From an uncultured Marinilabiliaceae bacterium (GTDB taxonomy: Bacteria > Bacteroidota > Bacteroidia > Bacteroidales > VadinHA17), in the NCBI GenBank assembly GCA_942491535.1, contig CALOBV010000012.1, positions 137,774 through 201,773 on the forward strand: a stretch of DNA of 64,000 nucleotides, in the 5' to 3' direction. Of the stretch, positions 4,019 through 62,349 are shown in pieces. The stretch's first letter is position 1; the number at the start of each line of letters is the position of its first letter. A model generated the notes under the pieces. That model worked only from the letters and a program-made list of their open reading frames with translations, did no database searches and was not told where the DNA came from. The position numbers and the translations under genes were made by a program.

Positions 4019-6676
4019 AAATGGTATGCCTTTGATCATCCATTCGGGGGCCGGTTTCCCTTTTAAATAATGATCGTAGAACTGTTCCATCCTTGTCTGG
4101 AAGTCGACCTGGTTTTCCCATTTAGCAAGATGATGATCTTCTCCAGGGTAGGAGCACAGGATCACATTCTTATTATTAAATCGTAAGCCGTTGTAAAACT
4201 CAATTGCCTGCAGCCATTCAACCGATCCGTCTTCTTCTCCCTGGAAGAGCAGGAGCGGAGTATTCATATTGCGTGCATGGAATACTGCCGACTGGTCTAC
4301 AAAAAGATCAAAGTCATCGTATGGATTGGTATTAAACCGTCCCTGTCCGTAATAGTCGTAGCTGTGCTGATTTGTGCCCGAGGATTTCCACAGCTGGTTA
4401 AAATCAGCAAGCAGATCGGAGACACCTGCTCCTATAACTGCTGCGGCAAACATATCGCTATGTGTTACAATATAATTACCTCCCTGTCCGCTAAAGCTAT
4501 GCCCGTGTATGCCTATTTTTTCCATATCCACATAAGCCAGTTCGTTTACCTTATTTACCGCCGCTTCTATGCATTCGAGCATGTCGGAGTGGGTTGAGCC
4601 TATATTGAAATGAATATCAGGCAGCAGCACCAGGTATCCATTGCTTGCATATTTTGGAAACATAGGGGTGTCGCGGTATATAATGCGGGACCACCTGTTC
4701 AGGTTCTGAGAGTTCTTTTCATAGAAGTCGACCAGCATGGGATATTTATCTCCTTTCTTATATCCATCAGGGACCATCAGTACAGCCTGGAGTCTAAGCC
4801 CGTTCTTGTTTGTATATTCTATCAGCTCATTATGGTACCACCTGAATTCATCTACAATTGGGTTGGCATCGGTAATTTTATCCAGTTTCTTAAAATTGTT
4901 ATCGCTCAGGTAATAATCGGGGTATTCTTTGGGTGATTCACGTGTAACAAGGTAGGTGTCGGCCTTCTTTGCCTTTACCGGTCGGCCATACCTGTTAGCA
5001 CTGTAAACAAGTTTATTAAGCTTACCATCTTCAAGCTGGTAAAAGCCTGCATCCTTGCTCCAGTAGCCGTATGCAGATAGAAGCATGGGCTTTTCAGTAT
5101 CGATAAATTTCTCTTCGGGATCGGTCTGGACATACCTCAGTTGTATCTCATTATCTGTTCCGTAATTATTGCTCAGATTCTTTGCCGGTGAGCCATCAAG
5201 GGGCTGGAGCCATATATCGTACATGCTGTACAGTATTACACTCATCCCATCTTTTGACCAGCCTGCTATACCATGGGATGGTTTTTGTCCGGCCTTGTCG
5301 AACAGCTCATTGATAAAAGATACCTCTGTATCTTCTGTAATATTAAGCGCTTTGTCAGACTCTTCTGTAAAGGTCCAGAAATTACCCTCTTCCCAGAAAA
5401 TAAATGTTTTGCTGTCGGGAGACAGACCCATAGCTCTTTCGAGACCCTTCCTGATAAGTTTTCTCTCACCGTTCAGGGTATTGACCCAGTAGTAATCTGC
5501 AAGCCTTGGTTTCCAGTCGGATATATATGGCTTATCATTACTGCCGATAGCGACCCTGCCATCCCTGCTGATACTAATATTCTTTATGCTTGAATCGGCC
5601 AGGGGGACAAATTTTTCAGTTTCTGAATTGACTGCCGAGGTATATGTAAAATTTTTATCCCTGTTTGCCTGCTTCTTCTGAACAGACTGTATTCTTTCAT
5701 CCTTCCAGTGCCAGATATCAACATCTGCCACCGGGTCGGCATCTTTCTTTGTTTCTATCTTATTCTCCTGTTTTACGATCCCAAAAAAGTAGACAGAGTT
5801 ATCGTCGCTAAATCCGGGAGTGCTGTTTTCACTAATAATATAATTCTTCGGGAAATTTTGATCCTCAGCCGGATCATACTCAAATAACTGTATATCATCA
5901 TCAAGCTTACTAAACGAAATAAGCGAATTTGATCTGTGCTTTTTGCCTTTTGGAGTTACTCCTTTATATGCAGCCAGAACGGTTCCTTTTTCATTCCATC
6001 CAGCTTTTGAATATATTTCTTTACCTGTATCAAGAGGTTTAATCATTCCATTGCCGGAGTACATCAGGAAGAGTCCGTTGCCTGTACTATCGGGCACCTC
6101 TACGGTAAGTATTGTGTGCGTTCCGGGCCTGGATATTTTATAATCTGTGACATGAGATATCCTTGATGTGTGTCCGGATTTAAGGTCAACAAGAACCAGG
6201 TCCCTGCCTTTGTTTTTTGATTTTGGGTCATCTTTAGCCAGGTGGACTAACAGGAAGTTGGAACCCTTATTAAACTCAAACTTTGCCTGGTTTTCTATAA
6301 TTTCCTTTTTACCTGTCTCAAGGTTTAATAAGACTACGCTGCTGCTTACCGGTTTCTTTTCTTTTTTGAGTGCCTCCTGCTTTTTAAATGGAAGAACAAG
6401 CCTGTATGCAGCCCACAGCTCGTTATCAGAAAATTGTACCTGGTTTGCCAGGGGGATAACATAAGAAGCTTCTGAAGATATACTTTTAATATACAGGGTA
6501 TCATCCATCCTGGGTGTTGAATAACTGTATCCTACCCAGTTTCCCTTTTCGGATAAGGCAATTGAATTAATTGATCTGAAACGACCATAATCTTCGATCT
6601 TAATTGCTTTCTTCTGAGCATAACCGGGCATGCTGATAAGTAATAATACCAGCAGGCTGAGAATTCTGTATTTCAT
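3992..6676 (-). CDS. S9 family (prolyl oligopeptidase/DPP-IV-like) secreted peptidase
   Basis: Signal peptide, beta-propeller region, GHSFSG nucleophile motif, then D and H of the catalytic triad (GEEDGSV, GEDHHL). Confidence 0.88.
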   Translation of the reverse strand: MKYRILSLLVLLLISMPGYAQKKAIKIEDYGRFRSINSIALSEKGNWVGYSYSTPRMDDTLYIKSISSEASYVIPLANQVQFSDNELWAAYRLVLPFKKQEALKKEKKPVSSSVVLLNLETGKKEIIENQAKFEFNKGSNFLLVHLAKDDPKSKNKGRDLVLVDLKSGHTSRISHVTDYKISRPGTHTILTVEVPDSTGNGLFLMYSGNGMIKPLDTGKEIYSKAGWNEKGTVLAAYKGVTPKGKKHRSNSLISFSKLDDDIQLFEYDPAEDQNFPKNYIISENSTPGFSDDNSVYFFGIVKQENKIETKKDADPVADVDIWHWKDERIQSVQKKQANRDKNFTYTSAVNSETEKFVPLADSSIKNISISRDGRVAIGSNDKPYISDWKPRLADYYWVNTLNGERKLIRKGLERAMGLSPDSKTFIFWEEGNFWTFTEESDKALNITEDTEVSFINELFDKAGQKPSHGIAGWSKDGMSVILYSMYDIWLQPLDGSPAKNLSNNYGTDNEIQLRYVQTDPEEKFIDTEKPMLLSAYGYWSKDAGFYQLEDGKLNKLVYSANRYGRPVKAKKADTYLVTRESPKEYPDYYLSDNNFKKLDKITDANPIVDEFRWYHNELIEYTNKNGLRLQAVLMVPDGYKKGDKYPMLVDFYEKNSQNLNRWSRIIYRDTPMFPKYASNGYLVLLPDIHFNIGSTHSDMLECIEAAVNKVNELAYVDMEKIGIHGHSFSGQGGNYIVTHSDMFAAAVIGAGVSDLLADFNQLWKSSGTNQHSYDYYGQGRFNTNPYDDFDLFVDQSAVFHARNMNTPLLLFQGEEDGSVEWLQAIEFYNGLRFNNKNVILCSYPGEDHHLAKWENQVDFQTRMEQFYDHYLKGKPAPEWMIKGIPFLQKATNNN

Positions 6677-6752
6677 AATTAAAAGATAAATATGGTTTGT
6701 TTAAATAAACTTACTATTTGGTGCAGGGTTTAACAAGGAGTGTAATTAGGCC

Positions 6753-9437: not shown

Positions 9438-9585
9438 AATATCTATAAAAATGTGGTTAATATATTTATAAATTTTGTAAATTAAAGTAGTTTATAATAT
9501 AAACCTAATTTTCCTATTTAATTTATTTTTGAACTTCCAATCTCTCCTGGCCCCTGGTTGTTTGCTCCTTCCTTTAGTCTCTTAA

Positions 9586-9734
9586 TTTCAACTTTTTTTA
9601 AACTCTTTCAACCTCCTCCCATTAAAGTTCACCCCAGTTTCAACTTTTTCACCCCAGTTTCAACTTTTCACTTTCAACTCATTTCAACCCAGTTTAAACC
9701 TTATCAACTTTATCAACTTTTTCAACCTTCTTCT
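9586..9734. repeat. pyrimidine-rich TTCAAC repeat tract
   Basis: Nine TCAAC copies, plus a near-tandem 20-nt repeat ttcaccccagttt(t)caacttt at 9628 and 9648. Confidence 0.75.
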
Positions 9735-11115: not shown

Positions 11116-11766
11116 ATGGGTCAGGGTCACTATCATGAAAACGAAAAGAAGACCCTATGGGTAGTTTTGCTTACAGCCGTGACAATGGTTGTGGAGATTA
11201 TCTTCGGCCTTTTATCGGGATCGATGGCCCTTCTTGCCGACGGTATACATATGGGATCCCATGTGCTGGCAATAGGCCTTAGCTGGGTAGCATATATTAT
11301 TGTCAGGAAGTTATCCAGGAACAAGTCATTTACAGGTAACTCCGACAAGATACTGTCGCTTTCTGGCTACAGCAGTGGATTAATCCTGTTAATTTTTGCT
11401 TTTGTGATTATAAGCGAGGCCATACACCGTCTTTCAAACCCTATTGATATAAATTATAAAGATGCTATAATAGTTGCTTTGATTGGACTGATCGTAAATA
11501 TTATTAGTGCCTTCCTTCTTCATACCGATAAGAAGCAATCAGATATTAATATCAGGGCTGCCTATCTCCATGTTATTGCAGATGCCCTTACCAGTTTCAC
11601 TGCAATTATAGGTCTTGTGATTGCCATGATATGGGATATTGTATATATCGATGCAATTGCAGCTCTCTTGAGTTCACTAATAATAATCAGGTGGTCGATA
11701 GGTTTGCTGAGGGACTCGGGTAGAGGTCTTCTGGATATGGAAAGCAGTACAGAGCATAAACATTAG
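11116..11766 (+). CDS. cation diffusion facilitator (CDF) transporter lacking the cytoplasmic C-terminal domain
   Basis: SMALLADGIHMGSH and NIRAAYLHVIADALTS motifs; ends just after TM6. Confidence 0.85.
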   Translation: MGQGHYHENEKKTLWVVLLTAVTMVVEIIFGLLSGSMALLADGIHMGSHVLAIGLSWVAYIIVRKLSRNKSFTGNSDKILSLSGYSSGLILLIFAFVIISEAIHRLSNPIDINYKDAIIVALIGLIVNIISAFLLHTDKKQSDINIRAAYLHVIADALTSFTAIIGLVIAMIWDIVYIDAIAALLSSLIIIRWSIGLLRDSGRGLLDMESSTEHKH

Positions 11767-11809
11767 AATATCTGACCCGGGATAGTCTTTTTCAGTCCTT
11801 AAAAATTAT

Positions 11810-11817
11810 TATATTTG
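11810..11817 (+). promoter_or_regulatory. -7 promoter element (TATATTTG) for tRNA-Cys
   Basis: TAnnTTTG consensus 22 nt upstream of the tRNA. Confidence 0.65.
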
Positions 11818-11838
11818 CAATCCGAACAGTAAGATGAT

Positions 11839-11909
11839 GGTCGGTTGGCCGAGTGGCTAGGCACCGGTCTGCAAAACCGGCTACAGCGGTTCGACTCCGC
11901 TACCGACCT
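11839..11909 (+). tRNA. tRNA-Cys(GCA)
   Basis: Acceptor stem GGTCGGT/ACCGACC, anticodon stem CCGGT/ACCGG with loop CTGCAAA, T-loop GGTTCGACTCC, U discriminator. Confidence 0.95.
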
Positions 11910-12052
11910 CAACTACAAAGCACCGCCACAGTTGCTGCCGGGGCTTATTTATGTGGAGGATTTTCCCTGAATGATATCTGCAAAAAATCTACAAGCTTGC
12001 TTGTAAAGATATTGTTTAAGCAATCCGGATCACGAAATACCGGGTGTAATAC

Positions 12053-12907
12053 AGAAAAGTTAAAGAGGTGAGTGCCAGCATGCTGAAGGTTTATGTTGAA
12101 AGCCACCCCCTCACCGGACGGTGACCCCGAGAACTCGGGGGAACACCCCGCTCAAAAAGTGTTTGTCGGGCTTCGCCCTGTTTTCGGTCTTCGCAGACTT
12201 GTGCGGCCTATTTATAAATTAGCTGTTGAAAAGCTTAAAGATTTTGATGAGTGAGTTTTTCAGCATGCTGTATAAGGTTGTATGTTGAAAGTCTCACCCC
12301 TCACCGGACGGTGATTCCCCGAGAACTCGGGAGAACCCCTATCTGTTTATAAAGTTGTTTGTCGAATTCTCCCTTTTATAGTGTAGAAGGAGGAAAAAAA
12401 TTCTATCCGACAGATTTTTCACTTGTTTTCACCGTTTAACCTTGCTTCCGATATTTCACTGGCTGAAGGTTATGTTGAAAGGCTCCCCTCACCGGACGGA
12501 GACGACCTGGATACATCGCCGGGGAACACCCCGCTGCAAAAATGTTTGTCGGGCTTCGCCCTGTTCTCCGTCAGGCTTACAAGTCCTCCTACTGTCTGTA
12601 AGGTCGTGGCCCTCGATCAGAAGGGAGGATCATCCGAGAGCCAGACGTGGAGTTTTTCCACTCTAAATAATGCTCCAAGGCCATTTAGTCTCATTAATCC
12701 ATACAATGGTGCTACAGGTGTTTCAATTGTTGAGAATTTATCATGGGAAGCCTCTCATGATCCTGATGGTGATCTTGTTAATACGATATTTACTTTCACG
12801 ATACTGAATGTTTAAAAAGTGGACACATATATACCTCACACCAGTAGTTGAAAAAGTCACCCTCACTAGAAGAGGGTGACCCCGAGAACTCGAAAGGGAA
12901 CACCCCG
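12053..12907 (+). repeat. array of four degenerate structured elements (candidate ncRNA or REP/MITE-like)
   Basis: Cores at 12082-12189, 12267-12364, 12462-12572 and 12847-12907 share GTTGAAA, C(A/T)CC..CTCAC..GG(T/A)GA, a hairpin and GAAC(A)CCCC. Copies 1-3 also share TGTTTGTCG. Confidence 0.8.
12590..12800 (+). pseudogene. internal fragment of a tandem Fn3/Ig-like repeat surface-protein gene
   Basis: KVVALDQKGGSSESQTWSFSTLNNAPRPFSLINPYNGATGVSIVENLSWEASHDPDGDLV, then YDIYF after a frameshift. No start codon or signal peptide. Confidence 0.65.
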
Positions 12908-12987
12908 TTCTTCTACCGAAAATGGTTTTGGAATTTTCGATAAAAAATATTTTCGTAATATTGAGATATAAAAGCTAGTTAATTATA

Positions 12988-14085
12988 TTGAACCTGGTTA
13001 TGATAAACTATTGCATCAGAAGATTTATTATTCTTACATCTCTTATACTGATATTTTCTTCATTCCTTGATCTTTATGGACAGCTTACACCTGACTCTTA
13101 TTCGATAGAGGATACCATATCGGTTGATGTAGATATATTTTCTGAGGAAGAGCCTGCTATTATTACCCTGGCATTTAATATTAAAGAATTTATAAAGAAA
13201 AAGAACAGCGATAATTATATTGATGCCAGGCTTTCCTATAAAATTAATGACACTTTAGATATTGAAAAGAATATTAGGATTAAGGCTCGTGGTAACAACA
13301 GGAGAAAGGTATGTTATTTCCCACCTATCTGGATAAATATTAAAAACGCAAATACTAATAATCTCTACCTGCAGGATATAAACAAGATTAAACTTGTAAC
13401 CCATTGTGGCAATAGCTTTAGTAATCAAAATTATGTAATTCTGGAGTACCTGATTTATAAGATGTATAATATTATTAGTCCCTACAGCTTCAGGGTACGC
13501 CTGGCACGGATCAAATACATTGATACAGCAAGGAAAAACAGAGAATTGGAGAAATGGGGCTTCTTGATTGAACCCGAAGAAGTAATGGCAGAAAGACTGG
13601 ATGCCTACCCCTTGAAAGAGAATAAAATAAGCTATAAATCTACTGATCGCATGCAAACAGATATCATGTGTCTATTTCAGTATCTTATTGGAAATGCTGA
13701 TTATTCAATACAATCAAGGCAAAATGTAAAGTTGCTAAATATGAAGGACCCTGATAAGCAAAGACCTATACCTGTTCCATATGATTTTGATTATTCCGGC
13801 TTTGTAAATGCAGAATATGCAATTCCCGGGGATAATCTGGGAATTGAAAAAGTGACTGATAGATATTTCCTTGGCCCATGCAGGAGTAATGAACGTTATT
13901 CTCAGATATTAGATATTTTTTATGATAAAAAGAATGAGATATATAGTCTTGTAAATTCATCTGAGCACCTGCGTGAAAGTTCAAAGAGAACAGCTATCAA
14001 ATACCTTGATGAGTTCTTTCTGCAGGCAAAGAACAAGAATTTTATCAGGAACAATATTCTTATAACCTGCAGGGATACATTGTAG
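12988..14085 (+). CDS. secreted conserved hypothetical protein, possibly CotH/atypical-kinase-like fold
   Basis: Signal peptide and motifs IKARGNNRR, KIKLVTHC, LEYLIYKMYN, GNADY, NVKL, PYDFDYSG. The fold call is inferred from motif order. Confidence 0.5.
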   Translation: MNLVMINYCIRRFIILTSLILIFSSFLDLYGQLTPDSYSIEDTISVDVDIFSEEEPAIITLAFNIKEFIKKKNSDNYIDARLSYKINDTLDIEKNIRIKARGNNRRKVCYFPPIWINIKNANTNNLYLQDINKIKLVTHCGNSFSNQNYVILEYLIYKMYNIISPYSFRVRLARIKYIDTARKNRELEKWGFLIEPEEVMAERLDAYPLKENKISYKSTDRMQTDIMCLFQYLIGNADYSIQSRQNVKLLNMKDPDKQRPIPVPYDFDYSGFVNAEYAIPGDNLGIEKVTDRYFLGPCRSNERYSQILDIFYDKKNEIYSLVNSSEHLRESSKRTAIKYLDEFFLQAKNKNFIRNNILITCRDTL

Positions 14086-14141: not shown

Positions 14142-15176
14142 CTAATAGCTGTGTTCATCCAGCTTTACCTTGCCCCAGAAAGTCCGGTATACAATTACAG
14201 TATATGTTACTACCAGAGGAAATCCTATTGCGGCAATAGTTAGCATTATTCCAAGCGATTTTTCAGATGAAGCTGCATTATAAATAGTAAGGCTGTTTAT
14301 TAAGCTTCCCTTATCGATAATAATAACGGGATATAGCTCAATAGCCACAATTATTAGCAGGAAGCTTATAGCAAGGGCAGAAAAGATAAAAGACCGTAGG
14401 TATTTACCTTTGGAGGCCAGTCTTGGAACATTTGCTATGCTCAGGAATGCAAGCAATGGTACAATAAGTAATACCGGCCTGGAAAGGAATTTATCTGTAA
14501 GATGTGGATAGGCTAAAAGAGATATAATTGTTACCAATAAAAACAAAGTAGTAAACACCAGAATAGATCTCCTCAGCAACCTGGAAATCTGCTCAAAGAG
14601 TGCACCTTCAGTCTTCATAGTAAGGTATATGGCTCCGTGAACCATAAAAAGCGACAGAGATGTTAGTCCGACCAGCAATGCGTAGGGATTCAGGAACTGA
14701 ATCCATTTTCCTGTATATACAAACTGTTCATCCATGCTCATACCAATAAGTACATTCCCAAGCACAACACCAAGAAGAAGTGCCAGCATTGCACTTGAGA
14801 CGCTATAGCTGATATCCCATACCTGCCTCCACCACTTCATTGTTTCCTTACTCCTGAATTCAATGCTTACTGCCCTGAATATCAGGAAGCCAAGGAAGAG
14901 AATAAATGGAATATACATAGCCGAAAATAGCGTTGCATACGCCTCCGGAAACCCTGCAAACAATGCTCCGCCACCAATTACAAGCCATACTTCATTACCA
15001 TCCCAGACTGGTCCGATGGCGTTAAGAGCTATTCGTCTGCTTTTATCGTCACGGAAGAATAAATGCCATGCTCCTGCGCCCAGGTCAAATCCATCGAGTA
15101 TGGCATAGCCTGAAAACAGTGCACCTACAACAAGAAACCAGAGAGTGGGGTAATCTATTCCTAATAATGTTTGCAT
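14142..15176 (-). CDS. cydB: cytochrome bd ubiquinol oxidase subunit II
   Basis: LDGFDLGAG...IGPVWDGNEVWLV motif. Confidence 0.95.
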   Translation of the reverse strand: MQTLLGIDYPTLWFLVVGALFSGYAILDGFDLGAGAWHLFFRDDKSRRIALNAIGPVWDGNEVWLVIGGGALFAGFPEAYATLFSAMYIPFILFLGFLIFRAVSIEFRSKETMKWWRQVWDISYSVSSAMLALLLGVVLGNVLIGMSMDEQFVYTGKWIQFLNPYALLVGLTSLSLFMVHGAIYLTMKTEGALFEQISRLLRRSILVFTTLFLLVTIISLLAYPHLTDKFLSRPVLLIVPLLAFLSIANVPRLASKGKYLRSFIFSALAISFLLIIVAIELYPVIIIDKGSLINSLTIYNAASSEKSLGIMLTIAAIGFPLVVTYTVIVYRTFWGKVKLDEHSY

Positions 15177-24942: not shown

Positions 24943-25732
24943 ATGAGAAATTTATTAAACATAAAGAGACTTGTGACCGTTTCGTTTGTCCTTACAGGAC
25001 TACTATTCACAATGAACCTATATCCTCAGGAGCCTGAACTTTTTACTAAAATAAGAGATAATGATATTGATGCTGTCAAGACTCTTATTGCAGCCGGAGC
25101 AAATGTTAACGAGGAGGATGATATGATGGGATATACACCACTGTTCCTGGCAATCGTTAATAACAATTTTGAAATAGTAAAATTGCTGTTATCTAATGGG
25201 GCCAATATTAACCATAGATACAAAAGGGGTGGATTAAGTCCTCTGATGTATGCATTAAATTCAAATTATATTGATATGGCAAAATTATTAATTGACCGGG
25301 GAGCGGATATCAATATAAAATCGAATGATGGATCAACAGCGCTGATTTTCGCGGCAGGAAGATCTAAAGAAGCTGTCGAGCTTCTTCTTTCTAAAGGAGC
25401 AGATATAAACGTCCGGACAAAAAATAATCTCGGAGTTTTTACAAATTGCGTTATGGGCCTTTATGTCGGATATGTCTCCTATGATCTGGCTGAGCTTCTT
25501 TTAGAGAAAGGAGCAGATATTAATGAAGAAAACACCAATGAATATATGGCAGGAGAGACTCCTTCTTTTTATTGCTGCAGGCCAGGACAATGAAGAACTG
25601 GTCAGATTTCTGATTAAAAATGGCGCGAATGTCAATGCCAAATCTAAAAAGGGGAAGACTCCCCTATCGATAGCCACAGAGGCAGGGAACGCCAATATAA
25701 TTGAGCTGTTAAAATCCAACGGCGCAAAATGA
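24943..25732 (+). pseudogene. exported ankyrin-repeat protein 1 (+1 frameshift near 25562)
   Basis: GYTPLFLAI, GSTALIFAA and GKTPLSIA ankyrin repeats. Removing one T in ccttcttttt joins the two ORFs. Confidence 0.8.
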
Positions 25733-25758
25733 TCTCTGTCAGATGTAACGGAGATTAA

Positions 25759-26578
25759 ATGGAACAAAAGAAAAATATAAGAATTACCATTATGAAAAAA
25801 CTAATAATGAATAAAAGATCTGCAATCTTATCCGTGGTGTTGATCGGACTTTTTGCCACAACAAACCTGTTCGCTCAGGAAACAGAACTTTTTGCCAAAG
25901 TCGGGGCAAATGATATTGATGCAGTAAAAAAACTGATTGCGTCCGGTGCTGATGTAAACTATCAACAGGATGATATGATGGGTTACACTGCCTCTGGGTC
26001 TGGCTAAGGACACTGTGATGATGGAGGTACTTATCTCCGCTGGCGCCGATATCAACCACCAGGATAATAGAACAGGGTACACCCCACTGATGAATGCACT
26101 TAATGGAAATAATATCATGGTAGCTGGATTTTTAATCAGGCAGGGAGCCGATATTAATATTAAGGCCAATGACGGTGCAACTGCCCTTATTCTTGCATGT
26201 GGCTGCTCAGAAGATATTGCTAAACAGCTGCTTGAGAAAGGAGCAGATATCCATGCATTAACTGACAAAGGGAATGGTGTCTTTACTCAATGTACGAGCG
26301 TGGGTTTAAGAAGAGAAACTGTTAGCTATAAATTTGCCGAATATCTTTTAGCCCAGGGAGCTGACATCGATGAGGCTAATACAACATCCTGGTACAAAGG
26401 CTATACCCCCCTGTTATGGGCTGTGTCATCCGGCGATGAGAAACTGGTTAGCTTCCTTGTTAAAAATGGTGCAAATGTCAACGCTATCGCAGTTGAGGGC
26501 AAAACACCCCTTTCAATAGCGACTGAAGCCGGATACACAAACATCGTTGAGATACTTAAAGCCAACGGCGCAAAATAG
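25759..26578 (+). pseudogene. exported ankyrin-repeat protein 2 (+1 frameshift near 25992)
   Basis: Paralog of protein 1 (ETELFAK..ANDIDAVK..DDMMGYT). Removing one base in actgcctctgggt joins the ORFs. Confidence 0.8.
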
Positions 26579-26608
26579 TTTAAGTTTAAATATAAAAATC
26601 AACCAACC

Positions 26609-26983
26609 ATGAACAATATGAAAAATAAATGCACAATCTTAATCTTACTGGTATGTTCGATTATTGGTCTTGGATCGTGCGAAAAGGATGAAGCCAATCC
26701 CTTTATCGGGACATGGGAAAACTTTGAAATAACAGCTCGTGGTTCCAATGCTACAACCATGGTATACAGGTCGAATATGACCATGACATTTACAATGGTG
26801 GTAACGGTTGACGACGAGGATACCTCAGCTTCAACAGATTATAATTATTCATATACTTCAACAACACTCACTACCTGGGAAGATGGCGAGCAGGAAGAAA
26901 CAACAGAGTATATGATTAATGATACTTACCTGGTTCTTTCCCCCGGGACTGATTTTGAAATAACTCTCACTAAAACTAACTAA
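26609..26983 (+). CDS. small lipoprotein (lipocalin-like beta domain)
   Basis: Lipobox LGSC, then EKDEANPFIGTW...YSYTSTTLT. Confidence 0.65.
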   Translation: MNNMKNKCTILILLVCSIIGLGSCEKDEANPFIGTWENFEITARGSNATTMVYRSNMTMTFTMVVTVDDEDTSASTDYNYSYTSTTLTTWEDGEQEETTEYMINDTYLVLSPGTDFEITLTKTN

Positions 26984-26993
26984 AAATATCTGT

Positions 26994-27524
26994 ATGAGAT
27001 TCGGTAATACGAGAACCAGAAAACCAGGTAACGCCAACCCCATTACTCTTGGTTTGATATTCGCAATTGTAGGAGGAGCAATATTTTTTCTCTTTGCCCT
27101 GCCTCCTATCCAATATGCAGCTACATCAAAGAGCTGGCCAACGGTGCCTGGAATAGTAACCAGGTCTGAGGTAAGTGTCTGGAAAAGAGACAGCCAGACT
27201 CATTACCAGCCTGATATTGCTTATTCATATACAATTGATGGTAAAAAGTACAGCTCTGCAAAGATAACTGTCGGAGAGCCTCCCCTGGATAATAATGTAA
27301 ATACAGCGAAGCGACTACAGGTAAAATATCCGGTAGGTAAGGAGGTGCTTGTATATTTTGACCCTGAATTGCCCGAGTCTTCAGCCCTTGAGCCGGGAAT
27401 AAAAACAGGCGATATTATGCTGGCATCCATTTCAATACTTTTTTTTGCAGTAGGACTGTTTGCACTATACAAAGGATTGAAGGCTAAGAGACAGGCATCT
27501 GAAGCAAAAATGTCACAGCTATAA
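26994..27524 (+). CDS. DUF3592-like membrane protein
   Basis: TM helix, SWPTVPGIVTRSEV...YSYTIDGKKY...YPVGKEVLVYFDPELPESSAL, second TM helix. Confidence 0.8.
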   Translation: MRFGNTRTRKPGNANPITLGLIFAIVGGAIFFLFALPPIQYAATSKSWPTVPGIVTRSEVSVWKRDSQTHYQPDIAYSYTIDGKKYSSAKITVGEPPLDNNVNTAKRLQVKYPVGKEVLVYFDPELPESSALEPGIKTGDIMLASISILFFAVGLFALYKGLKAKRQASEAKMSQL

Positions 27525-27555
27525 TAATAAACCTTTTTTAATAAATATTAAAGCA

Positions 27556-28260
27556 ATGAGAAATAAACGGCTAAACAATAACCTTATAAGAATCAGTACA
27601 TTACTAACCGGACTCTTCCTGACAGCAATTATTTACGCACAGGAAGCCCAGGAGAGCGATCCTCTCTACAGTGCGACCATCCGAGCAGACATCGATGCTG
27701 CGAAAAAGGCCCTGGCTGAAGGTGCCGATATAAACAGGCAGAGCGATAATGGCTATACGGCGCTGATGTGGGCGTCTACATACAGTAACAGGTCTCCATA
27801 TGATGAAATGGCAAAATTTCTTATCAATGCAGGTGCCGATGTGAACATCCGTGCCAATGATGGAACTACAGCTCTTCTTGATGCAGCTGAGAGCTCGAAA
27901 GAAATTACCCTTATGCTCGTGGAAAAGGGTGCAGATATCACTGCCCGGAGAGATGACGGCAGAGGGATATTCACAAGCTGCATTTTTGGCATCCTTATGG
28001 GAGCCACTGATATTGAACTGGCAGAATTTATGCTATCAAAGGGTGCTGATGTTAATGAGGCAGCCACATCCGGTGATGTAGAGGGCTGGGCAGCAATTCA
28101 TTATGCCTGCAGTAACGGTAATGAAGAACTGATTAAGTTTCTTATAAAAAACGGTGCAGATGTAAAAGCAAAAACGGCTGATGGTAAAACGCCCCTTTCC
28201 CTTGTCGGGTCAAAGCATCCGGAAATTGTTGAAATTCTGAAAGCCGCCGGCGCAGAATAG
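27556..28260 (+). CDS. exported ankyrin-repeat protein 3 (intact)
   Basis: Signal peptide; GYTALMWA, GTTALLDA, GWAAIHYA and GKTPLSL repeats. Confidence 0.9.
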   Translation: MRNKRLNNNLIRISTLLTGLFLTAIIYAQEAQESDPLYSATIRADIDAAKKALAEGADINRQSDNGYTALMWASTYSNRSPYDEMAKFLINAGADVNIRANDGTTALLDAAESSKEITLMLVEKGADITARRDDGRGIFTSCIFGILMGATDIELAEFMLSKGADVNEAATSGDVEGWAAIHYACSNGNEELIKFLIKNGADVKAKTADGKTPLSLVGSKHPEIVEILKAAGAE

Positions 28261-57746: not shown

Positions 57747-58994
57747 ATGAACTACAGGAAAATGTTTTTAAGCTTTGTGGCCTTATTGTTATGGCTAACC
57801 GGCATCGTTGCCCAGCAGGTGCCTTATGGAATAAAATACCAGGCTGTTGCCAGGAATAGTTATGGAGAGGAGCTGGTATCTGAGCAAATAGATGTCAGAT
57901 TCAGTATTCGTTCGGGTTCTAGCGAAGGTAATCTTGCATACCAGGAAGTTCATTCCAATGTTGTAACATCTCAATTTGGTGTCTTTGATGCAATTATAGG
58001 TGCCGGAACGCCGTTTGCAGGAGATAAAGAGAGGTTCCAGGATATTACCTGGGAGACCGATAATTATTTTCTTGGGATTGAAATAAAATTTGATAATGAT
58101 TTTCTTTATATGGGATCTATGCAGTTTCTGAGTGTGCCATACGCACTTTATGCCGGCCGTTCTCTTGAGCCCGGGCCGGAAGGCCCTCCAGGCCCTCCGG
58201 GAGATCCAGCTTCTGATGATCAGACCCTGTCTTTTAATGGCGTAAATCTTGCAATTTCAGGCGGAAATGAGGTAAATCTGGCAGCCTTTTTAGCGGTTAA
58301 TGATGCCGACCCTGATCCTGAAAATGAGATACAATCACTGAGTTTTAATTCGGTTAATTCGGAACTCGAGATTATCGGAGCCAACAAGGTTGATCTCTCA
58401 CCACTGATTAATTCCGACAACCAGGAACTTTCATACAATCCGCTTACTCATATTCTGACCATATCAAATGGAACTATTCCTGTAGACCTTGAAGAGTTAA
58501 AAGATGATGCAGATGCCAGCCCAACCAATGAGCTTATCTCAAATATTCAGATTGTTGGGTCCAGTCTGGTAATAGATGAGGGTTCTTCCCAGCATTCGGT
58601 TGATTTAAGTAGTAATCTGGTGGCTTTCAGGGTAAAGAAAACTATCTCAACAGACGCACCAATGCCTTTGTCTAACGTTGATTTTTTACCAGATGATGAG
58701 GACTATAATGATGGTTTAACTTTCAATATGGGGACAGGAGAATTCACAGCTCCTATGAATGGCATTTATGCATTTGATATAAACTATACAGCAGCGAGTA
58801 GCGCTGTTGAATTATCTATTTTCAAAAATGGAAATATTTTTGAAAAAATTGGATCAAACCTGACAACAAATCAACAGATTTTCAGGCATAAAACTATCAA
58901 ATTGAATTCTGGCGATAGAATCAAATTAGTAGTATATACTGGAACGGGTCTGGCAATTGGAACCGGAATTTTTTCAGGATTCCGGGTGTATTAA
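57747..58994 (+). CDS. secreted fibre-like protein: short collagen-like segment, beta repeats, C-terminal C1q-like domain
   Basis: QVPYGIKYQAVARN N-domain; GPEGPPGPPG; repeated Q.LS...L.I....VDL units; AFRV...FTAPMNGIYAF...LNSGD...FSGFRVY. Confidence 0.7.
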   Translation: MNYRKMFLSFVALLLWLTGIVAQQVPYGIKYQAVARNSYGEELVSEQIDVRFSIRSGSSEGNLAYQEVHSNVVTSQFGVFDAIIGAGTPFAGDKERFQDITWETDNYFLGIEIKFDNDFLYMGSMQFLSVPYALYAGRSLEPGPEGPPGPPGDPASDDQTLSFNGVNLAISGGNEVNLAAFLAVNDADPDPENEIQSLSFNSVNSELEIIGANKVDLSPLINSDNQELSYNPLTHILTISNGTIPVDLEELKDDADASPTNELISNIQIVGSSLVIDEGSSQHSVDLSSNLVAFRVKKTISTDAPMPLSNVDFLPDDEDYNDGLTFNMGTGEFTAPMNGIYAFDINYTAASSAVELSIFKNGNIFEKIGSNLTTNQQIFRHKTIKLNSGDRIKLVVYTGTGLAIGTGIFSGFRVY

Positions 58995-61259: not shown

Positions 61260-62349
61260 ATGATAAGTAACGATCAGTTAGATGGACTTATTAAGCGCCG
61301 TGATGCGCTGAGGAGGTTCCTTTGACATAGATGTCAAATTAAGCCAGATAGAAGAGAAGGAAAAAATTACACAGGATCCCTCGTTCTGGGACGATCCAAA
61401 GGCTGCTGAAGATCATATGAAAGGCATTTCGCTCTTAAAGGGGTGGACAACATTATTCAAGGATGTTGAGGATTCTATCGACGATCTGCAGGTATTATTT
61501 GATTTTCACAAAGATGGAGAAGCCAGTGAGGAGGAGATAGAGGAGAATTATTCAAGGTCTTTAAGACTGATTGAGGAGCTTGAACTTAAAAATATGCTTC
61601 GTAAGGAGGAAGATCAGTTTGGAGCGATCATGAAAATAAATGCAGGGGCAGGTGGAACAGAAAGTAACGATTGGGCTGAAATGCTGATGAGGATGTACCT
61701 TAGATGGAGCGAAACGAACGGGTATAGCGTTAAAGAACTGGATTTTCAACCCGGTGATGAGGTTGGAATAAAATCGGTTACACTTGAGATTTCAGGAGAT
61801 AAGGGCTATGGCTACCTGAAAAGTGAGAACGGAGTACACAGGCTGGTAAGGATCTCACCTTTTAACGCACAGGGTAAGAGGCAGACTACATTTGCATCAG
61901 TATTTGTGTCTCCGCTGGTGGATGATGAAATAGAGATTGATATAAACCTTTCCGATATTACATGGGAGACCTACAGGGCAAGTGGTGCCGGAGGTCAGAA
62001 TGTAAATAAGGTTGAAACGGCAGTGCGACTGCGACATGCTCCTACAGGGCTGGTAATAGAAAACCAGGAAACACGATCGCAGCATAAGAATAAAGAAAAT
62101 GCACTGAGAATACTGAAATCGAATCTATATGAGCTGGAGCTCAGGAAGAGGATGGAGGAGCAGTCGAAAATTGAAGGAACCAAGCTTAAGATAGAATGGG
62201 GCTCGCAGATCAGATCTTATGTAATGCAGCCCTACAAAATGGTGAAAGACCTCAGAACCGGTTTTGAAACAGGTAATGTTCAGGCTGTTTTAGATGGCGA
62301 CCTGAATGGTTTTATTAAATCTTTCCTGATGGAATTCGGAGCTGATTAA
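61260..62349 (+). CDS. prfB: peptide chain release factor 2 with programmed +1 frameshift
   Basis: [21 protein letters not shown], then AGGAGG-TTC-CTT-TGA-C at 61311-61326. The +1 frame is in frame with the ORF containing SPF and GAGGQNVNK. Confidence 0.96.

What the first reader, a model, noticed from the sequence alone, without database searches (positions are those of the whole stretch)
12053..12907. Regularly spaced array of four structured GC-rich elements directly downstream of tRNA-Cys
Seen in sequence: four degenerate copies whose GTTGAAA anchors lie at 12095, 12284, 12474 and 12847. Spacings are 189, 190 and 373 nt, so the last interval is about two periods. Approximate consensus: GCTG..AAGGTT.ATGTTGAAAG-C(A/T)CC-[CCTCACCGGAC]-GG(T/A)GA-hairpin-GAACACCCCG..TGTTTGTCG-(GGC TTC GCCC). 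Helix P1 is CACC/GGTG in copies 1, 2 and 4 but CTCC/GGAG in copy 3, a compensatory A-T to T-A pair. Helix P2 is CCCGA-GAAC-TCGGG in copies 1 and 2, has an AAA bulge in copy 4, and in copy 3 is replaced by an unrelated sequence that still pairs (CCTGG/CCGGG, with a U-G wobble that favours the + strand). The loop motif CTCAC is kept in all four. Copies 1 and 3 end in a GGGC-TTC-GCCC hairpin plus a T-rich tail. Copies 1 and 2 share upstream GAAAAG(C)TTAAAGA..GTGAGT..CAGCATGCTG, and that GTGAG could pair with the CTCAC loop. Sequences between copies differ. Inference: a tRNA-linked multi-copy ncRNA array, or a structured DNA element that accumulates at this site. I cannot assign it to any family I know.
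Basis: partly seen in the sequence, partly recalled or inferred. Interest (0 to 1): 0.8.

Follow-up and report, generated by a model that had tools for sequence, protein, structure and literature searches.

The report
Repeat element overwriting a lipoprotein gene
A roughly 115-base GC-rich element that sits next to the tRNA-Cys gene in a few Bacteroidales genomes has, in this genome, been copied three more times over pieces of the neighbouring lipoprotein gene and destroyed it, so the apparent "array of RNA genes" is one resident element plus three patchwork overwrites.

Summary
The four copies are real, at the stated coordinates, and are the only ones in the 64 kb window. No match was found in Rfam or in the phage, plasmid and viral collections.

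One copy of the roughly 115-nt unit lies just downstream of tRNA-Cys in several Marinilabiliales assemblies and one Rikenellaceae MAG. Close relatives lack it, and gene content after tRNA-Cys differs in every lineage.

The decisive comparison is with L032, a sister genome about 95% identical in the flanks:
- Copy 1 is the resident element.
- Copies 2, 3 and 4 sit where L032 has the promoter and start, the first DPDGD motif and the 3' end of an intact two-domain Ig/FN3-like lipoprotein gene.
- They replace gene sequence of similar length. They stay in register and retain some gene bases. DNA between them is 97-100% identical to L032.

Covariation is weak and folding is unexceptional.

Best reading: a hairpin-rich, recombination-prone DNA module at a variable tRNA-Cys site, spreading locally by microhomology-bounded templated patch replacement (SPDIR-like). 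The function of the resident unit is unresolved. Read-level validation is still needed.

The parts
11839..11910 (+). tRNA-Cys (GCA). This is the conserved anchor next to which the element is found in every genome that has it.
   Evidence: ARAGORN. Rfam tRNA model, 61.4 bits. The same tRNA precedes the element in L004, L005, L032, L037, L038 and L039.
11911..12052 (+). Spacer between the tRNA and the resident unit. It holds a degenerate tRNA terminator hairpin and a palindrome at 11981-12014. It resembles L004 rather than L032, and carries a 14-nt stretch, TTGCTGCCGGGGCT, identical to the terminator arm of the Rikenellaceae locus L005.
   Evidence: Alignment A2. Inverted repeat I3. No BLAST alignment to L032 over this stretch.
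12053..12075 (+). Short partial duplicate (GAAAAGTTAAAGAGGTGAGTGC) of the end of the spacer that natively lies after the resident unit (12228-12261).
   Evidence: Alignment A1. The native copy is colinear with L032 6785-6813.
12070..12190 (+). Copy 1, the resident unit of about 115 nt. In order it contains the palindrome CAGCATGCTG, the GTTGAAAG anchor, the C-rich CCCCCTCACC, the P1 hairpin TCACC/GGTGA, the P2 hairpin CCCCGAG/CTCGGGG, GGAACACCCCGCT, and GTTTGTCGG-GCTTCGCCCT-GTTTTCGG.
   Evidence: CM hit of 131 bits and nhmmer E=1e-34. It is orthologous by downstream context to L032 copy B, with 95-97% identity over the first 60 nt.
12191..12255 (+). Native spacer after the resident unit. It contains a terminator-like hairpin at 12191-12206 followed by a T run.
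   Evidence: Terminator scan. 90-100% identical to L032 6754-6813.
12255..12379 (+). Copy 2, a mosaic patch. It replaces the promoter region, start codon and signal-peptide codons of the lipoprotein gene (L032 6814-6955).
   Evidence: Identity to L032 falls to 17-60% here, against 97% or more on both sides. In the three-way alignment, 38 positions match the element only and 27 match the gene only, kept in register. CM hit of 80 bits.
12380..12449 (+). Remnant of the lipoprotein gene, covering the N-terminal codons after the lipobox.
   Evidence: 93-97% identical to L032 6960-7040.
12450..12568 (+). Copy 3, a mosaic patch. It replaces the codons for ...EPMVWQDAVDPDGDDLVYDLYLGTTPVQSSALVSALTVTE of domain 1 (L032 7051-7178). 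Its centre, GGAGACGACCTGGATACATC, is retained gene sequence.
   Evidence: 31 positions match the element only and 13 the gene only, with a gene-compatible run of 15. CM hit of 89 bits.
12569..12829 (+). Remnant of the lipoprotein gene, covering the end of domain 1 and most of domain 2 (PFSLINPYNGATGVSIVENLSWEASHDPDGD...). Several small deletions lie at 12781-12830.
   Evidence: 97-100% identical to L032 between 12602 and 12762, then 60-75%. Translations.
12830..12944 (+). Copy 4, a mosaic patch with its core at 12846-12915. It replaces the last roughly 30 codons and the stop of the lipoprotein gene (L032 7475-7567). It lies about 85 nt upstream of the next gene.
   Evidence: 20 positions match the element only and 8 the gene only. 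The 'AAA bulge' aligns with CAGAAAGTGAG in the gene. CM hit of 56 bits.
13000..14085 (+). Conserved hypothetical secreted protein gene of 361 aa from the ATG, with no Pfam family. It is a neighbour of the lipoprotein gene in both genomes and is not part of the element.
   Evidence: 84% identical to the L032 protein P0241. Exact product P0363 is on record.
14142..15176 (-). cydB, convergent. In L004 the single, truncated element copy abuts the cydB stop codon directly.

Best explanation
Only copy 1 is the native element. It is a roughly 115-bp, GC-rich, hairpin- and palindrome-dense DNA module. It marks the start of a highly variable region just downstream of tRNA-Cys in a small set of Bacteroidales genomes.

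Copies 2, 3 and 4 are not genes and not tandem duplicates. Each is a whole-unit-length copy of the genome's own resident unit laid over the adjacent Ig/FN3-like lipoprotein gene. In each case about 90-135 bp of gene was replaced by about 65-115 bp of element. The junctions fall at short or imperfect microhomologies. Some recipient bases were kept in register. The gene is now a pseudogene.

The most likely process (inferred, not shown) is templated short-patch replacement. A single-stranded copy of the unit anneals ectopically at a replication fork or repair gap and is built into the new strand. This resembles short-patch double illegitimate recombination or homeologous gene conversion.

Direct copies of the unit also bracket a two-gene outer-membrane-protein cassette in the sister genome. 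The unit therefore probably also mediates gain and loss of gene blocks by recombination between copies. I do not think it encodes a structured RNA whose helices are under selection.
For: Shown:
1. The window at 12076-13999 is colinear with L032 6652-8651. Identity is 97-100% between the copies and 17-60% inside them.
2. The L032 sequence at those places is an intact 227-aa lipoprotein with two Ig/FN3-like domains. Domain 2 in both genomes carries the same W..A..DPDGD motif that copy 3 destroyed in domain 1, so the intact gene is the ancestral state.
3. The patches replace sequence rather than add it (89 vs 105, 114 vs 135 and 66 vs 93 nt). They are element/gene mosaics in register.
4. The intact L032 gene has no above-background similarity to the element at these sites. 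The copies are therefore not eroded ancient repeats.
5. Copies 1, 2 and 3 share the window-specific variant GTTTGTCG, where L032, L038 and L039 have GGTTTATCG. The donor is therefore intragenomic.
6. In L032 two direct copies flank a 1.76-kb segment carrying two OMP_b-brl genes that the window lacks.
7. L038 and L039 encode the same CDF protein. They differ at 24 positions inside the unit and at about 3 in roughly 750 nt of flank. Both arms of P2 changed together and P1 is deleted. The unit is a hot spot of clustered change.
8. Gene content after tRNA-Cys differs in each of eight locus types.
9. SPDIR is a documented process. Ectopic single strands anneal at extended microhomologies that may contain mismatches and gaps, and give replacements of 3 to about 100 bp (bioRxiv 10.1101/2023.11.22.568220).
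Against: - SPDIR is extremely rare in the laboratory, at about 1e-12 to 1e-13. Three events from one donor into one gene, within the time needed for about 3-5% flank divergence, need a special cause. That could be abundant unit-length single strands, one complex event, or selection, and none has been shown.
- The patches are at or above the upper size reported for SPDIR.
- The core is about 88% identical between a Rikenellaceae and the Marinilabiliales copies. That suggests sequence-specific constraint or horizontal transfer, which a purely passive 'fragile DNA' view does not explain.
- All patches span the whole unit with the same ends. This would fit a discrete RNA or cDNA donor as well as a DNA donor.
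- The near-equal spacing of 189 and 190 nt is left as coincidence.
- I could not inspect reads, so the mosaics rest on a single assembly.
Confidence: 0.45

Rival explanations
1. The unit is a small RNA gene. It would be on the + strand, running from about CAGCAUGCUG to the GGGCUUCGCCC hairpin and U tract, or on the - strand, ending at the hairpin that always follows CUUUCAAC. Copies 2 to 4 would then arise because the abundant, discrete RNA (directly or after reverse transcription) templates repair or conversion of the neighbouring gene.
For: - All three patches and the L032 A/B duplication share the same unit boundaries, as expected from a donor molecule with fixed ends.
- A 4-bp hairpin with a U-rich tail follows copies 1 and 3, L032 copy A and L038.
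- In every locus type a hairpin directly flanks the GTTGAAAG end, although its sequence differs between loci.
- The core is conserved across two families.
- P2 keeps pairing through a double change in L038.
Against: - No Bacteroidetes-type promoter (TAnnTTTG) is convincingly placed on either strand (read by eye).
- On the + strand the unit lies behind tRNA-Cys terminators, and in L005 it starts inside the terminator tail.
- Folding z-scores are ordinary.
- RNAalifold keeps only P2.
- P1 is broken or deleted in several copies.
- L004 and L005 lack the 3' hairpin.
- No reverse transcriptase was found among the window ORFs examined.
Confidence: 0.2
2. The unit is the recombination site of a site-specific recombinase encoded elsewhere, analogous to integron attC/attI or to an att core. 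Gene cassettes would be inserted and excised at it, and copies 2 to 4 would be aberrant events at secondary sites.
For: - Direct copies bracket a two-gene cassette in L032 that is missing from the window, which has one unit at that place.
- The site next to tRNA-Cys is a hot spot of gene-content change. L044 carries an HTH_17 (excisionase-like) island and a pseudo-tRNA-Cys.
- The unit contains several short direct and inverted repeats (TGCTGAAGG / TGTTGAAAG, and GTTTATCGG twice) that could be protein-binding sites.
- Full units are nearly always followed by a gene on the same strand.
Against: - No integrase, transposase or recombinase was found in the window ORFs examined.
- There is no second copy of the tRNA-Cys 3' end.
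- A single crossover at a secondary site gives one sharp junction plus an insertion or deletion. It does not give a two-ended, in-register mosaic patch.
- The cassette indel is equally explained by ordinary homologous recombination between 110-nt repeats.
- The attC hallmarks are absent.
Confidence: 0.12
3. Copies 2 to 4 are an assembly or consensus artefact, for example a chimeric consensus of two co-assembled haplotypes. Only the resident copy would be real.
For: - Nucleotide-level mosaics that keep register in both parents are what a consensus over misaligned reads could produce.
- The window comes from a single NCBI contig of 225 kb, and the ORFs spanning copies 1 and 3 have no other cluster members.
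- A second NCBI contig of a near-identical strain carries frameshifted fragments of the neighbouring gene, so assemblies of this organism can be noisy.
Against: - The rest of the window has long intact ORFs.
- A haplotype mixture would affect the whole variable stretch, not three unit-sized blocks separated by 97-100% identical DNA.
- No known allele would provide the second haplotype.
- Independent assemblies (L037, L039) also show rearranged or truncated units.
Confidence: 0.08
4. The unit is a non-autonomous transposable element (a MITE, or an IS200/IS605-type palindrome-associated element) that inserted three times into the gene.
For: - The element is short with defined ends and internal hairpins.
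- Several left junctions follow TTTCA.
- Its phylogenetic distribution is patchy.
Against: - The copies replace target DNA rather than add to it, and they contain recipient bases inside.
- There are no terminal inverted repeats or target-site duplications.
- TTTCA is part of the unit's own palindrome.
- There is no transposase in the window.
- Strict pattern scans found only one copy per genome in L004 and L005.
Confidence: 0.05

Closest known systems
[quoted passage not shown] 2016, as described in bioRxiv 10.1101/2023.11.22.568220)
   Same: A short heterologous segment from elsewhere in the genome replaces a stretch of similar length. The junctions lie at microhomologies or at extended microhomologies with mismatches and gaps. 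The result is a clustered 'microindel'. Triple alignment of recipient, mutant and donor shows the same picture.
   Different: Here there are three events from the same donor into one gene. Each spans the whole donor unit (66-114 nt, at or above the reported size range) and has several internal switches. SPDIR is known only as a very rare laboratory mutation in Acinetobacter baylyi. No natural element is known to spread this way.
Intergenic repeat elements of bacteria (REP/BIME, Correia/NEMIS, ERIC, BOX)
   Same: These are short, GC-rich or palindromic, non-coding and hairpin-forming. They lie in intergenic DNA near terminators, vary between strains and are prone to recombination.
   Different: Those families have tens to hundreds of copies per genome, and defined inverted repeats or a RAYT or other transposase. 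This unit is single-copy in most carriers, is always next to tRNA-Cys and lacks terminal inverted repeats.
tRNA-linked genomic-island att sites and integron attC/CALIN arrays
   Same: Direct repeats bracket a gene cassette at a tRNA-adjacent hot spot where gene content differs between strains.
   Different: The repeat does not overlap the tRNA. There is no integrase, no RYYYAAC/GTTRRRY core pair and no ORF-plus-site periodicity. Three of the four copies lie inside a gene.
Segmental gene conversion systems (Neisseria pilS to pilE, Borrelia vls) and diversity-generating retroelements
   Same: A nearby non-expressed template is copied in short tracts into a surface-protein gene.
   Different: Those donors are homologous to the target and keep it functional. 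Here the donor is unrelated non-coding DNA and the target is destroyed. No reverse transcriptase or adenine-specific pattern is present.

Membership tests
Any Rfam RNA family | Covariance-model score at or above the family's gathering threshold | tested here: not met
   The only match in the window is tRNA-Cys. With E up to 10 over 11700-13100, nothing credible overlaps the copies.
Structured non-coding RNA (generic) | Helices supported by compensatory changes across homologues | tested here: inconclusive
   Ten copies were compared. Two pairs are counted with a double change: one in P2 (two cells, G-C in L038, while U-A in copy 3 is an alignment artefact of gene-derived sequence) and one in the 3' hairpin (U-A in one copy). 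P1 is broken in 3 of 9 copies and deleted in L039. RNAalifold keeps only P2. There are too few independent sequences to decide.
Structured non-coding RNA (generic) | Folding more stable than shuffled sequence | tested here: not met
   z-scores are -1.04, -0.39, -0.26 and -1.99 on the + strand, and 0.09 and -1.36 on the - strand.
Tandem repeat array (duplication of a unit plus spacer) | Successive units share homologous spacers and add length relative to an unduplicated allele | tested here: not met
   The 'spacers' are colinear, 97-100% identical pieces of a single gene in L032. The window stretch is shorter than the L032 stretch.
Integron attC / CALIN | Inverse core RYYYAAC and core GTTRRRY 57-141 bp apart, enclosing an imperfect palindrome | tested here: not met
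   The anchor is GTTGAAA, with A rather than Y as the seventh base. The only TTTCAGC-like partner lies about 25 nt away. No attC-sized palindrome is present (read).
Integron attC / CALIN | IntI-type integrase and attI next to the array (for a complete integron) | tested here: not met
   No integrase or recombinase domain was found in the window ORFs examined. ORFs at 16-30 kb were read only as translations.
tRNA-targeting integrative element (att site) | Direct repeat of the tRNA 3' end at the far boundary, with an integrase nearby | tested here: not met
   There is no second copy of the tRNA-Cys 3' end in the window with up to 3 mismatches, nor in the fetched loci. No integrase is present.
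MITE / IS200-IS605-type palindrome-associated element | Simple insertion relative to an empty site, with TIRs and a TSD, or a fixed target tetra- or pentanucleotide and no loss of target DNA | tested here: not met
   Each copy replaces 93-135 nt of target with 66-114 nt and keeps some target bases inside. No TIR or TSD is visible.
CRISPR array | Near-identical 25-40-nt repeats, unique spacers of uniform length, and a leader or cas genes | tested here: not met
   The units are about 115 nt and 55-90% alike. The intervening DNA is a gene. No cas domains were found.
Diversity-generating retroelement | Reverse transcriptase nearby, and a TR/VR pair differing at adenines of TR | tested here: not met
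   No RT was found among the ORFs examined. Differences between the copies include many indels and are not adenine-specific.
SPDIR-type microindel | Replacement patch with an identifiable ectopic donor and illegitimate junctions at (extended) microhomologies | tested here: met
   Triple alignments of gene, window and unit. The donor variant is shared within the window. The intact gene has no significant prior similarity to the unit.
SPDIR-type microindel | Formed by single-stranded DNA annealing at the replication fork | not testable with these tools
   This needs genetics (recJ/exoX/recA backgrounds) or a selection assay in a carrier strain.

The most novel reading that the evidence does not exclude
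The unit is an active, self-propagating element of a new kind. It would produce a discrete unit-length single strand (RNA, cDNA or ssDNA). It would spread not by insertion but by overwriting nearby DNA in register at weak microhomologies, inactivating or rewiring surface-protein genes at a tRNA-Cys-linked variable locus.
Probability: 0.15. Interest if true: 0.85.

Novelty: new variant of a known kind. Interest (0 to 1): 0.58.

Why it matters
There are two points of interest.

First, the roughly 115-nt unit is an undescribed element strictly linked to tRNA-Cys. It is almost as conserved between two Bacteroidales families as the tRNA itself. Yet it is absent from close relatives and hypervariable between near-identical strains. 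That combination is unusual and asks for a function or a mode of transfer.

Second, if the assembly is right, this locus would be a rare natural example of repeated short-patch templated replacement. A non-coding donor destroys a coding gene three times, each time across the full length of the donor. Processes of this kind are known mainly from rare laboratory mutants. A natural hot spot would make their cause (source of the single strand, strand bias, enzymes) experimentally accessible.

There is also a practical lesson. Apparent compensatory base changes among local repeat copies can be leftovers of overwritten sequence, so a sister-genome comparison should come before any covariation argument.

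Tried and rejected
**Database and collection searches with no result**
- Rfam, at gathering thresholds and at E up to 10: nothing.
- Phage and plasmid collections by blastn: no match.
- Three pattern scans of viral contigs: nothing, or one chance hit in a response-regulator gene.
- The genome-collection pattern scan gave 5 hits. Two were nuoB coding sequence.
- The metagenome scan gave 19 hits. Only L013 and L020 were real, and both are identical to L005.

**Searches for more related loci**
- Loci found through cydB homologues had no tRNA-Cys and no element, so that synteny is not conserved.
- Homologues of the 365-aa neighbour were too distant, at 61% or less apart from L032, to give more sister loci.
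- The literature search on tRNA-Cys integration in Bacteroidetes gave nothing relevant.

**Interpretations rejected**
- Protein-coding: the frames differ between copies, and indels shift the frame while the nucleotides stay conserved (reading).
- A 5' leader of a shared downstream gene: the downstream genes are unrelated.
- Pre-existing homology between the intact gene and the unit: the local alignment scan shows background scores only.
- Sigma-70 or Bacteroidetes promoter assignment on either strand, and an ECF-type reading (TGAAAG-N15-17-CGGT): suggestive at best and not testable here.

**Spurious hit**
- The extra CM hit at 58144-58239 is collagen-like coding sequence.
Full report
**1. The observation**

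The window carries tRNA-Cys(GCA) at 11839-11910 on the + strand. Downstream are four copies of a GC-rich motif, with GTTGAAA anchors at 12095, 12284, 12474 and 12847.

The shared order is GTTGAAAG, then CCCTCAC, then a CCCCGAG-AA-CTCGGGG hairpin, then GGAACACCCCG. Copies 1 and 3 continue into GTTTGTCGGGCTTCGCCCTGTT.

The motif counts are far above chance. A covariance model built from ten copies and run without filters finds only these four in 64 kb. The next hit is collagen-like coding sequence.

**2. Known families**

Rfam finds only the tRNA, both at gathering thresholds and at E up to 10. The unit has no blastn match among 50,697 phage and 72,556 plasmid records. It has no real match in viral contigs.

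**3. Relatives elsewhere**

Exact-pattern scans of the species-representative genome collection and of the JGI metagenome contigs gave very few true hits:
- L004, a Marinilabiliaceae MAG.
- L005, a Rikenellaceae MAG, with two metagenome contigs (L013 and L020) identical to it.

In both, a single copy lies directly downstream of tRNA-Cys.

I then walked out from homologues of the cation-efflux gene that precedes the tRNA. This gave more loci of the window's own clade.
- Loci with the unit after tRNA-Cys: L032, whose CDF protein is 99% identical, and L037, L038 and L039.
- Loci with the tRNA but no unit: L033, L034, L035 and L044.

What follows the tRNA differs from locus to locus:
- nothing before cydB (L004);
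- two OMP genes plus a lipoprotein gene (L032);
- an ECF sigma/FecR/TonB-receptor operon (L038, L039);
- a Type ISP restriction enzyme (L033);
- an MFS transporter (L035);
- an HTH_17 island with a pseudo-tRNA-Cys (L044);
- a glycosyltransferase (L005).

The link to tRNA-Cys is therefore real, the distribution is patchy, and the site is a hot spot of gene-content change. cydB synteny is not conserved.

**4. What the four copies are**

L032 is about 94-97% identical to the window upstream of the tRNA. Downstream, window 12076-13999 aligns colinearly with L032 6652-8651.

Copy 1 corresponds to L032 copy B. The spacer after it (12197-12255) is 90-100% identical. Beyond that, L032 has an intact 227-aa lipoprotein gene with a lipobox and two Ig/FN3-like domains, each with a W..A..DPDGD..Y motif.

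In the window this gene is cut into pieces that are 97-100% identical to L032. They are separated by three blocks where identity collapses to 17-60%. Those blocks are copies 2, 3 and 4.
- Copy 2 covers the promoter, start codon and signal peptide.
- Copy 3 covers the first DPDGD motif.
- Copy 4 covers the last roughly 30 codons and the stop.

Each block replaces gene sequence of somewhat greater length: 89 for 105 nt, 114 for 135 and 66 for 93. The window stretch is therefore shorter than the L032 stretch. This excludes simple insertion and tandem duplication.

Three-way alignments of gene, window and unit show nucleotide-level mosaics that stay in register with both parents:
- copy 2: 38 positions match the element only, 27 the gene only;
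- copy 3: 31 and 13;
- copy 4: 20 and 8.

The centre of copy 3, GGAGACGACCTGGATACATC, is the gene's own GAT GGA GAC GAC CTG GTA TAC GAT C with two single-base losses.

The intact gene has no above-background similarity to the unit at these sites. The copies are therefore not eroded old repeats. Because domain 2 keeps the motif in both genomes, the intact gene is the ancestral state.

Copies 1, 2 and 3 share the window-specific variant GTTTGTCG, where L032, L038 and L039 have GGTTTATCG. The donor is therefore the window's own unit.

**5.

- The CTCC/GGAG 'compensatory' P1 of copy 3 uses GGAG from the gene's GAT GGA GAC codons.
- The 'unrelated sequence that still pairs' in P2 of copy 3 is coding sequence.
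- The AAA 'bulge' of copy 4 aligns with the gene's CAGAAAGTGAG.

Across ten copies:
- P1 is broken in three and deleted in L039.
- One P2 pair shows a genuine double change (G-C in L038).
- RNAalifold retains only P2.

Folding energies are not unusual.

L038 and L039 encode the same CDF protein. They differ at 24 positions inside the unit and at about three positions in roughly 750 nt of flank. Both arms of P2 changed together. Such a clustered, symmetric change between near-identical strains fits templated change within or between palindromic DNA better than slow compensatory evolution.

**6. Other anatomy**

- In L032 two direct copies of the unit (4893-5008 and 6652-6752) bracket 1.76 kb with two OMP_b-brl genes. 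The window has a single unit there.
- The unit has fixed ends in all full copies. It runs from the palindrome (C)TTTCAGCATGCTGAAGG to GCCCTGTTT(T/A)TCGGTCT.
- It contains short direct repeats: TGCTGAAGG / TGTTGAAAG, and GTTTATCGG twice.
- A hairpin always directly flanks the GTTGAAAG end, but its sequence differs between locus types.
- No integrase, transposase or reverse transcriptase was found among the window ORFs examined.
- No second copy of the tRNA 3' end exists.

**7. Explanation**

The anatomy is well supported, given the assembly: one resident unit and three whole-unit-length, in-register mosaic overwrites of a neighbouring gene.

For the process I favour templated short-patch replacement. 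A single-stranded copy of the unit anneals at weak or extended microhomologies and is incorporated. This is described as short-patch double illegitimate recombination. Homeologous gene conversion with patchy repair would give the same outcome.

The unresolved points are these:
- why one donor was used three times in a short evolutionary time;
- why each patch spans the whole unit, which hints at a discrete donor molecule, possibly an RNA;
- what the resident unit does;
- why its core is about 88% identical between two families.

The rivals are weighed in the structured fields. They are an sRNA gene with RNA- or cDNA-templated conversion, a recombinase site for cassettes, an assembly artefact, and a transposable element.

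**8. Novelty and verdict**

The unit is not in any library searched and behaves unlike the classic intergenic repeat families. The overwriting resembles a known but very rare mutational process. I rate it a new variant of a known kind, of moderate to good interest, conditional on read-level confirmation.

The interpretation as an ncRNA array with compensatory helices is not.

Noticed in passing
window 9585-9725 (upstream of folB, whose coding part starts at about 9745): A run of about 12-nt tandem units, (C/T)CCAGTTTCAAC / TTATCAAC. Their number differs from L032, which also has an extra insert of about 63 nt there. GTTTCAAC is the reverse complement of GTTGAAAC, close to the element's invariant GTTGAAA anchor.
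   Followed up: partly
window 11920-11965: The hairpin after tRNA-Cys is itself a mosaic. It has an L004-type 5' arm and 3' arm (CCGCCACA...TGTGGAGG), interrupted by TTGCTGCCGGGGCT. That stretch is identical to the 3' arm of the terminator in the Rikenellaceae locus L005.
   Followed up: partly
L038 1795-1903 versus L039 1952-2040: These two assemblies encode the same CDF protein. They differ at 24 positions within the unit, including a 13-nt deletion that removes P1 and a joint change of both P2 arms. Only about 3 differences occur in the surrounding 750 nt.
   Followed up: yes
L038 1905-1990 (same sequence in L039): Directly after the unit comes GAGTGAGTTTGTTTTTTGCATGCTTGTGATATGATGTTTACGAAAGGC. 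This looks like a degenerate second unit 5' part, lying upstream of an ECF sigma/FecR/TonB-receptor operon. It may be another overwrite, but no comparator was available.
   Followed up: no
L043 4730-4855 and L037 2260-2330: Extra 37-nt tandem repeats, GGCACTCCTTCGCTGAAGCTACGGAGTACAC, lie between the tRNA-Cys promoter and the tRNA. There are three copies in L043 and a related stretch in L037. They are absent from the window.
   Followed up: no
L044 1085-1170 and 1570-3821: A degenerate tRNA-Cys-like pseudo-copy lies upstream of the real tRNA-Cys, and a small island with an HTH_17 (excisionase-like) gene lies downstream. This indicates that integrative elements use tRNA-Cys in this clade.
   Followed up: no
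L033 6189-8651 and L034 2727-5153: A Type ISP restriction-modification enzyme (Mrr_cat_2, ResIII, N6_Mtase, Type_ISP_C) lies in the variable region after tRNA-Cys, in relatives that lack the unit.
   Followed up: no
L037 2545-2579: The unit is cut inside the P2 loop (GGTGACCCCGA|ATTCTAAGACTAAAAC) and continues into unrelated AT-rich sequence up to the contig end. This is another rearranged copy in an independent assembly.
   Followed up: no
window 12781-12830: Several small deletions (1, 2, 1 and 9 nt) relative to L032 cluster just upstream of copy 4. They lie in gene sequence that is otherwise almost identical.
   Followed up: partly
window 24943-28260: A cluster of paralogous genes for secreted proteins with a repeated GADIN/GADVN motif (ankyrin-repeat-like, judged by eye), seen in the translations. 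No family search was run on them.
   Followed up: no
window 57747-58994: A protein with collagen-like Gly-Pro repeats and a C-terminal C1q/BclA_C-like domain.
   Followed up: no
window 61417-62349: A release-factor ORF (PCRF plus RF-1) matches the PCRF profile only from position 33. The N-terminus may lie in another frame, as in the programmed frameshift of prfB. This was not checked.
   Followed up: no
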